Origin: a virus
Taxonomy: Duplodnaviria > Heunggongvirae > Uroviricota > Caudoviricetes
Reading direction: 5' to 3' (one strand)
IMG/VR virus record: IMGVR_UViG_2703718797_000012
DNA: 40,979 nt
Below are positions 1 to 3,000 of this stretch, piece after piece (the first letter of the stretch is position 1; each line of letters opens with the position of its first letter). A program made the position numbers.

Positions 1-3000
1 GTGTATGAGTTTCATCTTGGTCTTGACCGGACCGTTTATGAACCGTTACTGCAAAGCAATTTTTCTGTAGGTTTAATTCTGGGTGCGCTCTTTTTTGGTC
101 TGGGGTATCTGGCGGGATGCGGTTTGCTTGACAGCTTCACCGAAAAAATGGCGCGAAATTTTCATTTCGAATATGGAACAGCGCGCGCCTGGGGATCTTT
201 TGGCTATGCTATTGGCGCATTCTTTGCTGGCATATTTTTTAGTATCAGTCCCCATATCAACTTCTGGTTGGTCTCTCTATTTGGCGCTGTATTTATGATG
301 ATCAACATGCGTTTTAAAGATCAGGAACACCAGTGCGTAGCGGCGGATGTGGGAGGGGTAAAAAAAGAGGATTTTATCGCAGTTTTCAAGGATCGAAACT
401 TCTGGGTTTTCGTCATATTTATTGTGGGGACGTGGTCTTTCTATAACATTTTTGATCAACAACTCTTTCCTGTCTTTTATGCAGGTTTATTCGAATCACA
501 CGATGTAGGAACGCGCCTGTATGGTTATCTCAACTCATTCCAGGTGGTACTCGAAGCGCTGTGCATGGCGATTATTCCTTTCTTTGTGAATCGGGTAGGG
601 CCAAAAAATGCATTACTTATCGGTGTTGTGATTATGGCGTTGCGTATCCTTTCCTGCGCGCTATTCGTTAACCCCTGGATTATTTCATTAGTGAAGCTGT
701 TACATGCCATTGAGGTTCCACTTTGTGTCATATCCGTCTTCAAATACAGCGTGGCAAATTTTGATAAGCGCCTGTCGTCGACGATCTTTCTGATTGGTTT
801 TCAAATTGCCAGTTCGTTGGGGATTGTGCTGCTTTCAACGCCGACTGGGATACTCTTTGACCACGCAGGCTACCAGACGGTTTTTTTCGCAATTTCGGGT
901 ATTGTCTGCCTGATGTTGCTATTTGGCATTTTCTTCCTGAGTAAAAAACGTGAGCAAATAGTGATGGAAACGCCAGTACCTTCAGCAATATAAACGTAAA
1001 CTTTTTCCGGTTGTTGTCGATAGCTCTATATCCCTCAACCGGAAAATAATAATACCAAAATGCTTAGCCCTGCTAATAATCGCCTAATCCAAACGCCTCA
1101 TTCATGTTCTGGTACAGTCGCTCAAATGTACTCCGGATACACGGCTCGCTGATTTCCAGGGCATTGTCGTAATTCAGCGACCTGTCCCGTGTATCACGGG
1201 CCTGCGAATTCATCAAGGAAAGCATTGTGGAGTGAAGTATCAAGTCACGCCATATTTCGCGATCAGGATTGTGTGTGATGGTTACATCGCCCAGCCCAGG
1301 GCTGTTTAGTCATCAGCGTTTTCTGACCGTGTTGAGATTTCAACCTGTTGCAGGAAAAATGAGTAGATAGGGCAAATGTGCTGCCAAACTTATCTTTTAC
1401 GGGGTGAAGGTAGATATCGTTTGAAGGGTATCTGGTGTCCCCTGCAGACATCTACTTGAAGCAGCAGGGGATTGATTAGAATGGTGTTTTTTAGGTGTGA
1501 GAAATATTTTACCCGCTATTTTACCCATTGGCGCGGCTTAAGAGCTTATTTTTGAATTCACAATGGTCACGATATAACCATCTTGCTCGACCGTGGATAA
1601 CTTTGGCTTTAGGCAGGTCGCCGGACTTAATCCGGTCGTAGATGAAGGTTTTACCAAAGCCAGTATCAGCCATGATGAATTTCAAATCAACCAGTGAATC
1701 AGGTTGTAGTTCGTGTTGCATGAGTGCTATCTCCGAATAGGGAATCGAACCTGCAAATCAGGCAATAAAAAACCGCCATCAGGCGGCTTGGTGTTCTTTC
1801 AGTTCTTCAATTCGAATATTGGTTACATTGTTTTAATATATGAATAAATAAATTAGCTTTTTTCGTTGCCTTCGCGTTCTTTATTAATTTTAACAAACTC
1901 GTTTTTACCACGCTCTCCAAATGCGTCTTTAGAGTCGTTGTATCCGCAATCGCAGCACACATAATCACCAGACCATCCACGCATTGTTTTTTCTTTTGCA
2001 ATATTTCCAGAACCGCATTTTGGACAAGACATATCACTACCTCCAAAGCATGAGTGAGATGACAACGTAACATTGATTGGAGATTAACAATAGATTGCTG
2101 ATGTAAAAGATATGTATAAGCTTCGCTTTCAAAGTGGAGGCTCTGGTAGCGGCATCCAGTGTGACGGCTCACATACCCCCTCAACACCATTCATGTAAAA
2201 GAATTGAAATAACCCTTTACCTTTGTGAAACCCTACCATCTGCTCTTTTGTGTCTGAGCAATAAACCAAAACATCTTCTTCGCTTGGCATTCGCTCACTA
2301 CAGCTTATCCAACCATCCGGAATTACCGGAGAGTTGCCAGCGGCCTCGGGCATATCCGGACCTTTGCGAATAGCCTTTGCAAGCTCCAGCGGGTCATCGT
2401 AAAGCCAGTCGCCAGTTTGTGGGTGATTTGCTTCTGCAAGCTGCGCAGCCCATTCAAGACCATCTTTTTGACCTTGGAGATAATCAAGCGGCAACTCTTC
2501 ATGATTACTTGCAGGTTCTGCACTATCAGCTTCGCGCCGCTTCTGTAGCTCTGCTGCCATCGCTCTCACGACTTCAACTGGTGCCCTTGCAGCAAACTCT
2601 ATGTTGGTGATCAGCTCATTAAGATATTGCTCGCTGGGATACTGTTTCTTATCGGTTATAGTGGTCATAGCTATTTCACCTTAATCTCAACATTTCGCAG
2701 CTTTAGCTCTACTGGCAGGTCTGACTTTCCGGTTAATGCTAATGCGAGATTTTCTGGAGTAATGAGAGCCGTTATTGTTTTCCCCATCGACAGACGAATA
2801 ATCATTCGTATCTCGCGATCGTCACATGCTCCCGGTCGAACAATTGAGATTTGTCCGTTCATCTCACTCTCCTTTGATGCGAATGCCAGCGACGCGTAGT
2901 GCGTGTTCTAAGTCAATCAGGCAAAGCCAGCTGCCATTTTCTTTAGGTATCATGACATGTCGCTTATCAGCATTTATTGGGTGCCCATATCGAAGGTCGT

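What the first reader, a model, noticed from the sequence alone, without database searches (positions are those of the whole stretch)
1433..1721. Left junction: argW 3' end copy with excisionase here and integrase at the far end
A 15-nt exact copy of the tRNA-Arg 3' end lies at 1433..1447 on the minus strand, separating the host permease side from phage DNA. The excisionase (1521..1721) is at this end while the integrase is about 38 kb away at the right edge, so in the circular phage attP would lie between xis and int, as in the KplE1/CPS-53 prophage family and unlike lambda. Two TATTTTACCC direct repeats (1505..1526) next to the core are candidate Int/Xis binding sites. The intact tRNA and attL should lie just beyond 40979.
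Basis: partly seen in the sequence, partly recalled or inferred. Interest (0 to 1): 0.5.

Follow-up and report, generated by a model that had tools for sequence, protein, structure and literature searches.

The report
Known argW prophage junction (KplE1/CUS-3 type)

Summary

- **Core.** Window 1433-1447 (-) is an exact, unique 15-nt copy of the argW 3' end. It marks the host/phage boundary to the base.
- **Boundary evidence.** Free-phage genomes (HK620, Sf6, Kapi1) become homologous exactly at 1433. The host flank joined directly to argW is found uninterrupted in at least 1415 E. coli genomes.
- **Proteins.** torI (1521-1721, -) is 66/66 identical to the solved TorI structure. intS (39822-40979, -) is 385/385 identical to K-12 IntS.
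- **Predicted tRNA.** An assembly identical to the last 9224 bases of the window continues with a 161-bp arm. Then comes an intact tRNA-Arg(CCT) that starts with the same 15-mer.
- **The repeats.** The two TATTTTACCC copies match the IntS arm-type motif (GGGTAAA). They are almost invariant in 19 diverged att regions. They are integrase sites, not TorI sites. The five TorI motifs lie on the other arm, outside the window.

This is the published KplE1/HK620/Sf6/CUS-3 recombination module.

One side finding: a second 16-nt argW copy lies at 1741-1756. The CUS-3 GenBank record labels that copy as the att core, which my tests contradict.

The parts
1..993 (+). 3' part of the host sucrose permease gene cscB (LacY family); host DNA
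   Evidence: Pfam LacY_symp, E = 2.9e-147. Annotated as oligosaccharide/sucrose MFS transporter in relatives.
994..1432 (.). Host intergenic DNA. In prophage-free strains it runs directly into argW (the B' side of attB).
   Evidence: Contiguous with argW at 99.7-99.8% in at least 1415 genomes. E. coli 536 layout.
1433..1447 (-). att core: 15-nt copy of the argW 3' end (CTGCAGGGGACACCA), the crossover region of attR. Equivalent to the K-12 pseudogene 'pawZ'.
   Evidence: The published core is CTGCAGGGGACACCAT (PMC2951348). Deleting the 17-bp attB abolishes Kapi1 integration at this site (PMC8787464).
1438..1471 (.). Conserved inverted repeat TCCCCTGC (1438-1445) / GCAGGGGA (1464-1471), joining the core to the P arm. 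Possibly a pair of integrase core-type sites (inference).
   Evidence: repeat I7. 90% paired across 19 diverged att regions, with 2 compensatory changes.
1465..1477 (-). IHF-like sequence AATCAATCCCCTG (8 of 9 consensus positions of WATCAANNNNTTR), preceded by an A-rich tract. Putative.
   Evidence: Read directly. ATCAA is partly conserved in A4. That attR has one functional IHF site is my recollection of Panis 2010 Virology, which I could not read here.
1505..1526 (-). Two direct repeats TATTTTACCC (reverse complement GGGTAAAATA), read as IntS arm-type (P-arm) binding sites. The second overlaps the torI Gly66 and stop codons.
   Evidence: The same GGGTAAA motif occurs on the P' arm next to the intS ATG. 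GGGTAAA is invariant in all 19 diverged att regions and GGGTAAAA in 18 of 19, with a fixed 12-nt period and a fixed 73 nt to the core. HK620 annotates this stretch as an attP repeat.
1521..1721 (-). torI: recombination directionality factor (excisionase), 66 aa
   Evidence: 66/66 identical to PDB 1Z4H. Annotated torI in relatives.
1741..1756 (-). Second 16-nt copy of argW (T-arm, TTGCAGGTTCGATTCC), 20 nt upstream of the torI ATG. It belongs to the conserved module. HK620 annotates a cII-activated 'integration' promoter over it. It is not the crossover site.
1770..1789 (-). Intrinsic terminator ending the upstream early-left (eag) transcription unit. P22 homology starts about here, so this is the edge of the recombination module.
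39822..40979 (-). intS: tyrosine integrase with an arm-DNA-binding domain. Its promoter, the P' arm, the second core copy and intact argW lie just beyond the window.
   Evidence: 385/385 identical to K-12 IntS. Pfam Arm-DNA-bind_3, Phage_int_M and Phage_integrase. Continuation read in L116.

Best explanation
Window 1433-1721 is the attR junction of a CUS-3-like, P22-type (Lederbergvirus) prophage. The prophage integrated by site-specific recombination into the 3' end of the host tRNA-Arg(CCU) gene argW.

**How it works**
- The tyrosine integrase IntS is encoded at the far end of the prophage. It recombined a 15-16-nt core in phage attP with the identical 3' end of argW.
- The tRNA stays intact at the intS end (attL). 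A 15-nt copy of its 3' end is left at this end, between the prophage and the csc sucrose locus.
- In the circular phage attP sits between torI and intS, so integration puts the two genes at opposite ends of the prophage.
- The two GGGTAAAATA repeats at 1505-1526 are arm-type sites for the N-terminal domain of IntS on the P arm.
- The five TorI sites and further IntS arm sites lie on the P' arm, overlapping the intS promoter, just outside the window.
- For excision, TorI binds attL. Together with IntS bridging arm and core sites, and with IHF, it drives attL x attR recombination back to attP and attB.

**Shown here:** the sequence anatomy, the exact boundaries, protein identity, and conservation of the sites.

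**Taken from the literature on identical proteins:** binding and recombination activity.

**Inferred:** that this particular prophage still excises.
For: - **Core and boundaries:** (four-way attP/attB/attL/attR comparison; empty site in at least 1415 genomes).
- **Intact argW beyond the window:**, in an assembly with 0 mismatches over 9224 nt. Both ends occur on one scaffold. The same layout is seen in IMT5155, ATCC 11775 and K-12.
- **Proteins:** TorI is 100% identical to 1Z4H. IntS is 100% identical to K-12 IntS and has an Arm-DNA-binding domain.
- **Arm sites:** the GGGTAAA motif occurs on both arms. The two P-arm copies are conserved in 19 diverged att regions while the DNA between them and the core varies. 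The window's P arm has no GTTCG/GATCG/GTCCG motif, whereas the P' arm of a relative has exactly five. That matches the five TorI sites of Panis et al. 2010.
- **Literature:** PMC2951348 gives the 16-nt core, TorI and IntS sites on attL, in vitro attL x attR excision, and the module's conservation in CUS-3, HK620 and Sf6. PMC3509656 covers the same module. PMC8787464 reports that attP lies between int and xis and that an attB deletion abolishes integration at this site.
- **Phage identity:** endosialidase tailspike and neuO heptamer repeats. CUS-3 is the best phage match for the right half.
Against: - Nothing contradicts the overall picture.
- Binding of IntS to the two repeats in attR rests on motif identity, conservation and the HK620 annotation. 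The primary footprinting papers (Panis 2007 JBC, Panis 2010 Virology) could not be read here.
- The second repeat overlaps the torI Gly-stop codons, so part of its conservation may be due to coding.
- The right-hand att site is not in the window. It was read from identical assemblies.
- The CUS-3 GenBank record places the att cores at a different 16-mer.
Confidence: 0.95

Rival explanations
1. The true attachment core is the other direct repeat, TTGCAGGTTCGATTCC (window 1741-1756 and the argW T-arm), as annotated in the CUS-3 GenBank record. In that case torI, the TATTTTACCC repeats and the 15-mer would lie outside the prophage.
For: - CP000711.1 labels this 16-mer 'attL core' (1-16) and 'attR core' (40192-40207).
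- It is an exact 16-nt repeat. I calculate a chance expectation of about 1e-3 for any 16-mer of a 75-nt tRNA in 41 kb.
Against: - Free-phage genomes contain torI and the P arm contiguous with the 15-mer and the P' arm.
- A crossover at the 16-mer would leave torI embedded in argW. That junction is found in 0 of 5426 E. coli genomes.
- The 15-mer empty site is found in at least 1415 genomes.
- In vitro recombination and the attB deletion both support the 15-17-mer (PMC2951348, PMC8787464).
Confidence: 0.02
2. The two TATTTTACCC repeats are TorI (excisionase) binding sites rather than integrase sites.
For: - They abut the torI gene.
- RDF sites in lambda lie on the P arm close to the xis side.
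Against: - Published TorI sites contain GTTCG, GATCG or GTCCG and lie on attL (PMC2951348, PMC3509656).
- No such motif exists in window 1448-1520, whereas five occur in the P' arm.
- The repeat matches the IntS arm-type motif, with its conserved TAAA, found next to the intS ATG (PMC2951348).
Confidence: 0.05
3. The torI end is a leftover of an older KplE1-like element, and the 38-kb P22-like prophage is a separate insertion with its own, unrecognised ends.
For: - argW is a recombination hot spot with decaying prophages (PMC9659370).
- KplE1 remnants carrying torI are common: 4160 of 5426 genomes matched some part of the window 900-2100 query, which includes torI.
Against: - Window 1433-1900 is collinear at 98% with the HK620 virion genome, running from the core through torI into eag.
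- The window holds only one torI, one intS and one copy of the 15-mer core.
- The total length of about 39.7 kb fits a P22-like genome.
Confidence: 0.02

Closest known systems
KplE1 (CPS-53) cryptic prophage of E. coli K-12: IntS/TorI recombination module
   Same: - Identical TorI (66/66) and IntS (385/385).
- Same core, same P-arm repeats and same torI upstream box.
- int and RDF at opposite prophage ends.
- The 15-nt argW fragment is annotated there as pawZ.
   Different: - KplE1 is a 10-kb defective remnant next to dsdC with a 16-nt core.
- Here the element is a roughly 39.7-kb P22-like prophage next to cscB with a 15-nt identity block.
Phages HK620, Sf6 and Kapi1 (Lederbergvirus, argW-integrating)
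   Same: - attP core, arm repeats and torI are 97-99% identical at the DNA level.
- attP lies between int and xis.
- Seroconversion or surface-modification genes sit next to int.
   Different: Different tailspikes and surface-modification genes (O-antigen rather than K1 capsule), and a different early-region mosaic.
CUS-3, the K1-specific prophage of E. coli RS218 (CP000711)
   Same: - Endosialidase tailspike.
- neuO with AAGACTC repeats.
- intS and argW insertion.
- Right half 96% identical over 72% of the query.
   Different: - The left half of the window matches HZ41/IME10-type phages better.
- Host flank is csc rather than dsdC.
- 11 heptamer repeats against 19.
- The CUS-3 record places its att cores at the T-arm 16-mer and so omits torI.
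Lambda int-xis-attP module
   Same: A heterobivalent tyrosine integrase with arm-type and core-type sites, helped by a small winged-helix RDF and IHF.
   Different: In lambda int and xis are adjacent and co-transcribed, and both sit at one prophage end. Here attP separates them and intS has its own autoregulated promoter inside attL (PMC2951348).

Membership tests
KplE1/HK620/Sf6-type argW recombination module | 15-16-nt core identical to the argW 3' end, present at both prophage ends | tested here: met
   The left copy is at 1433-1447. The right copy, with intact tRNA-Arg(CCT), was read in an assembly identical to the window's last 9224 nt.
KplE1/HK620/Sf6-type argW recombination module | IntS-type tyrosine integrase next to argW, transcribed away from the tRNA | tested here: met
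   385/385 identical to K-12 IntS. Pfam domains. Layout.
KplE1/HK620/Sf6-type argW recombination module | TorI-type RDF at the opposite prophage end, adjacent to the other core copy | tested here: met
   66/66 identical to PDB 1Z4H. The torI stop codon is 73 nt from the core.
KplE1/HK620/Sf6-type argW recombination module | attP located between RDF and integrase genes in the excised or virion genome | tested here: met
   Shown for the HK620, Sf6 and Kapi1 genomes, which are 97-99% identical across this region. For this prophage it follows from the end sequences; no circular form was observed.
KplE1/HK620/Sf6-type argW recombination module | IntS arm-type sites (GGGTAAA / conserved TAAA) on both arms and five TorI sites (GTTCG-like) on the P' arm | tested here: met
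   The sequence motifs are present and conserved. Protein binding itself is not testable with these tools.
KplE1/HK620/Sf6-type argW recombination module | TorI-dependent excision restoring attB and forming attP | not testable with these tools
   Published for the identical proteins and near-identical att sites of KplE1 and HK620 (PMC2951348).
Lambda-type module (int and xis adjacent, both at one prophage end) | xis immediately next to int on the same side of attP | tested here: not met
   torI is at 1521-1721 and intS at 39822-40979, 38.1 kb apart.
CUS-3 prophage (K1 capsule-specific, neuO-carrying) | Endosialidase tailspike, plus neuO with AAGACTC heptamer repeats next to int | tested here: met
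   Pfam End_beta_propel, E = 1.2e-233. 11 repeats at 38860-38936.
CUS-3 prophage (K1 capsule-specific, neuO-carrying) | Collinear identity with CP000711 along the whole genome | tested here: inconclusive
   The right half matches at 72% coverage and 96.3% identity. For the left 24 kb the best matches are HZ41 and IME10, not CUS-3. It is therefore a mosaic relative, not the same phage.

The most novel reading that the evidence does not exclude
The second argW-derived box upstream of torI (GGTTCGATTCC, window 1741-1756) may be more than a relic. It could be a functional operator or promoter element of the uncharacterised torI promoter, bound by TorI (its sites share GTTCG), by the core-binding domain of IntS, or by a CII-type activator.

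What I measured:
- It sits at a fixed distance of about 30 nt from the RDF start codon in 9 of 18 species-level loci (Escherichia, Serratia, Citrobacter, Pantoea, Edwardsiella).
- It is duplicated in an Erwinia phage.
- In argW it abuts the true core.

If functional, it would couple RDF expression to the recombination proteins. It would also explain why the deposited CUS-3 record took it for the att core.
Probability: 0.25. Interest if true: 0.3.

Novelty: already known. Interest (0 to 1): 0.1.

Why it matters
For the finding itself it matters little. The argW IntS/TorI module is one of the better characterised non-lambda recombination modules, and CUS-3-like prophages at argW are well documented in K1 E. 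coli.

Two practical points follow:
- The prophage ends in this window are now fixed to the base: 1433 on the left, and the argW 3' end 176 nt beyond 40979 on the right.
- The deposited CUS-3 record appears to place its att cores at the wrong direct repeat and so leaves out the excisionase gene. Separately, many of the IMG/VR contigs retrieved here end 3 nt after the torI stop codon and so lack the P arm and core. Both points are worth knowing when such records are used to define prophage boundaries.

Tried and rejected
- **Papers not held.** The primary footprinting papers (Panis 2007 JBC; Panis 2010 Virology) and the CUS-3 paper (King 2007, PMC1951898) are not in the library. Site assignments in attR therefore rest on motif identity, conservation and the HK620 annotation.
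- **IMG/VR scan.** The scan with a TorI alignment returned only loci with 100% identical TorI, which was useless for footprinting. The genome-contig scan supplied the diversity instead.
- **Source genome.** No complete E. coli genome in the collection holds the exact left junction; the best full-length match was 96.6%. I identified the source through exact-protein look-ups instead.
- **Rfam.** A search of 1000-2200 gave only a sub-threshold STnc130 hit (24 bits against a gathering score of 55), rejected as chance.
- **Folding.** The torI leader shows only the eag terminator hairpin and no significant structure around the T-arm box (z = -1.75).
- **T-arm 16-mer as core.** Rejected.
- **Old arm relic in the host flank.** I compared the host flank next to the core by eye with the P' arm. 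The similarity was not convincing.
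Full report
**1. What is in the sequence**

The 15-mer CTGCAGGGGACACCA occurs once in the window, at 1433-1447 on the minus strand. The minus-strand ORF at 1521-1721 encodes a 66-aa protein that is identical at every residue to the solved TorI structure 1Z4H. TATTTTACCC occurs exactly twice, at 1505-1514 and 1517-1526. The second copy overlaps the last sense codon and the stop codon of torI. The window ends on the ATG of a 385-aa minus-strand ORF (39822-40979). That ORF is 385/385 identical to K-12 IntS and has Arm-DNA-bind_3, Phage_int_M and Phage_integrase domains. 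Bases 1-993 encode the C-terminal 330 residues of a LacY-family permease, annotated cscB in relatives. Every coordinate in the finding is therefore correct.

**2. Is 1433-1447 the real host/phage boundary?**

Four independent lines say yes.

(a) In a search of the phage collection with window 1400-1900, HK620, HK633, Sf6, Kapi1, N7, HF4s and others all begin to align at query base 34, which is window 1433.

(b) Extracting every copy of the 15-mer from the window and from relatives gives the classic four-way pattern:

| Site | Left of core | Right of core |
|---|---|---|
| attP (HK620, Sf6) | gataaa | acatctac |
| attL (IMT5155, ATCC 11775, K-12) | gataaa | gaatcgaacc (argW) |
| Window junction | gggtatc (host) | acatctac |

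(c) I built an artificial empty site from window 1133-1447 followed by the argW side of IMT5155. It is contiguous at up to 99.8% identity in at least 1415 of 5426 complete E. coli genomes. E. coli 536 shows cscK - cscB - short DUF4942 remnant - tRNA-Arg - yfdC - mlaA.

(d) Prophages with a dsdC flank (K-12, ATCC 11775) and those with a csc flank (this window, SW07096) diverge from each other at the base just left of the 15-mer.

The base 3' of the core in the tRNA sense is T in attP and next to dsdC, but G in the csc flank. That is why the identity block is 15 nt here, 16 nt in K-12 (PMC2951348) and 17 nt as reported for Kapi1 (PMC8787464).

**3. The prediction that intact argW and the second core lie beyond 40979**

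The window stops at the intS ATG, so I looked for the source.

- An exact-protein look-up with the tailspike found NCBI assembly GCA_001608125.1 (LOGP01000001.1). Its sequence is identical to window 31756-40979, with 0 mismatches in 9224 nt and the same 11-copy heptamer tract.
- It continues with 161 nt and then tRNA-Arg (anticodon CCT) on the minus strand, beginning TGGTGTCCCCTGCAG. yfdC and mlaA follow.
- One ENA scaffold is identical to window 1-6168. About 41 kb away it carries the same tailspike-intS-tRNA-Arg-yfdC arrangement.
- The same layout is annotated in APEC IMT5155, ATCC 11775 and K-12.

**4. Gene order**

On the minus strand the circularised phage would read: torI - P arm - core - P' arm (with the intS promoter) - intS. 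HK620 and Sf6 are annotated this way: attP core at 1368-1383 and 18099-18114 respectively, between hkaC/gene 18 (TorI) and int. The Kapi1 paper states it explicitly: attP lies between int and xis, so the two genes end up at opposite ends of the prophage. K-12 has argW-intS at one end and torI followed by the 15-nt pseudogene pawZ at the other.

**5. What the TATTTTACCC repeats are**

Their reverse complement is GGGTAAAATA. The P' arm of relatives, between the intS ATG and the core, carries these copies:
- GGGTAAAAAT and GGGTAAAATT in one orientation;
- TATTTTATCC and CTTTTTACCC in the other.

Panis et al. 2010 describe IntS arm-type P' sites there, all containing TAAA, with P'1 overlapping the -10 box (PMC2951348). 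IntS has an arm-DNA-binding domain.

For a conservation test I collected att regions from diverged relatives. These were prophages in Serratia, Citrobacter, Dryocola, Pantoea, Tatumella, Rouxiella and Edwardsiella, plus Erwinia and Klebsiella phages. In the 19-sequence alignment:
- the first GGGTAAA is invariant, and the second GGGTAAAA is invariant in 18 of 19 (one G-to-A change in a Klebsiella phage);
- the 12-nt period is fixed, and so is the 73-nt distance from the RDF stop codon to the core;
- the roughly 35 nt that follow are freely variable.

The HK620 record marks the equivalent bases (1441-1463) as an attP repeat.

TorI sites contain GTTCG, GATCG or GTCCG and lie on attL (PMC2951348, PMC3509656). 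The window's P arm (1448-1520) contains none of these, while the P' arm of a relative contains exactly five. I conclude that the repeats are integrase arm-type sites. Binding was not observed here, and part of the second repeat's conservation may be due to coding.

**6. Other anatomy of the junction**

- An 8-bp inverted repeat (TCCCCTGC at 1438-1445 and GCAGGGGA at 1464-1471) links the core to the P arm. Extended to nine pairs, it is 90% paired across the 19 sequences. It has two compensatory double changes, in Rouxiella and Edwardsiella, where the core itself differs. It may represent paired core-type integrase sites. That is inference.
- An IHF-like sequence lies at 1465-1477 (read directly).
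- An intrinsic terminator at 1789-1770 (-) ends the upstream eag unit.
- P22 homology begins at about 1763, so the recombination module spans 1433 to about 1762.

**7. A second argW copy and a conflict with a deposited record**

Window 1741-1756 (GGAATCGAACCTGCAA) is an exact 16-nt copy of the argW T-arm. In the tRNA it abuts the 15-mer core with a 1-nt overlap. It is 100% conserved in KplE1, HK620, Sf6 and the other E. coli prophages.

The CUS-3 GenBank record labels this 16-mer 'attL core' and 'attR core'. It therefore ends before torI.

I tested that alternative. A crossover at the 16-mer would leave torI inside argW. A 346-nt probe for that junction found no contiguous match in any of 5426 genomes, against at least 1415 for the 15-mer empty site. 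Virion genomes also contain torI next to the 15-mer. The 16-mer is therefore not the crossover site.

What it does do is unclear:
- HK620 annotates a cII-activated 'phage integration' promoter over it.
- A GGTTCGATT box lies about 30 nt upstream of the RDF start in 9 of 18 diverged loci.
- It is duplicated in Erwinia phage Midgardsormr38.
- It shares GTTCG with TorI sites.

A regulatory role is possible but untested. A literature search for the sequence found it only in tRNA-probe contexts.

**8. What the prophage is**

It is a P22-like Lederbergvirus.
- The right half matches CUS-3 best (72% coverage, 96.3% identity). It carries an endosialidase tailspike and a neuO-type hexapeptide acetyltransferase with AAGACTC repeats.
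- The left 24 kb matches HZ41 and IME10 better, so the phage is a mosaic.
- With 11 repeats the neuO ATG at 38855 is out of frame with the enzyme body. From my own knowledge of Deszo et al. 2005, the gene is in frame only when the copy number is a multiple of three, so this would be a phase-OFF state.
- Otherwise near-identical assemblies have 8, 12 and 18 copies. CUS-3 has 19.

**9. Comparison with what is known, and verdict**

The junction is a textbook member of the KplE1/HK620/Sf6/CUS-3 argW recombination module. Its core, protein-binding sites, intS autoregulation and TorI-dependent excision have been characterised with proteins identical to those encoded here (PMC2951348, PMC3509656). 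Its attB requirement has been confirmed genetically for Kapi1 (PMC8787464). All sequence-level defining features were tested and met. Only recombination activity could not be tested.

Novelty: already known. Interest is low. The only mildly new points are the evidence against the CUS-3 record's att annotation and the conserved T-arm box upstream of torI, which remains unexplained.

Noticed in passing
window 1741-1756 (-); CP000711.1 1-16 and 40192-40207: A second exact 16-nt copy of argW (T-arm, TTGCAGGTTCGATTCC) lies 20 nt upstream of the torI ATG. The CUS-3 GenBank record annotates this repeat as the att core and so excludes torI. The crossover product it predicts is absent from 5426 genomes. 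A GGTTCGATT box at a fixed distance of about 30 nt from the RDF start codon is conserved in 9 of 18 diverged loci and duplicated in Erwinia phage Midgardsormr38. Its function is unknown.
   Followed up: partly
window 38855-39582 (+), repeats 38860-38936: A neuO-type polysialic acid O-acetyltransferase gene carries 11 copies of the AAGACTC heptamer. The ATG at 38855 is out of frame with the hexapeptide-repeat body, so the gene looks phase-OFF. Otherwise near-identical assemblies have 8, 12 and 18 copies, and CUS-3 has 19.
   Followed up: partly
window 1438-1445 / 1464-1471: An inverted repeat TCCCCTGC / GCAGGGGA joins the att core to the P arm. It is 90% paired in 19 diverged att regions, with compensatory changes where the core differs (Rouxiella, Edwardsiella). 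It may be paired core-type integrase sites.
   Followed up: partly
window 1433-40979 as a whole; tRNA genes at 15316-15471: The prophage is a mosaic. The right half (from about 25.5 kb) is CUS-3-like, with an endosialidase tailspike. The left 24 kb matches phages HZ41 and IME10 better. It carries tRNA-Asn(GTT) and tRNA-Thr(TGT).
   Followed up: partly
window 1-1432: This K1-type (neuO/endosialidase) prophage sits next to the csc sucrose locus rather than dsdC, the flank reported for CUS-3 in RS218. No complete E. coli genome in the collection has exactly this junction (best full-length match 96.6%), although draft and metagenome assemblies do.
   Followed up: partly
window 1397-1528 (-); HK620 hkaB 1324-1464, Sf6 gene 17: A small ORF starts in the P arm, overlapping the torI stop codon, and reads across the att core. 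In attP it is the annotated 46-aa hkaB/gene 17. In the prophage it becomes a 43-aa hybrid that runs into host DNA. Nothing suggests it is a real gene.
   Followed up: no
IMG/VR loci L016, L017, L020 and many others: Many of the IMG/VR contigs returned end 3 nt after the torI stop codon, so those records lack the P arm and core. I did not check whether these ends are prophage-prediction cuts or natural contig ends.
   Followed up: no
window 1671-1798 (+): A sub-threshold Rfam match to the sRNA family STnc130 (24.3 bits against a gathering score of 55, E = 0.48). Probably chance.
   Followed up: no
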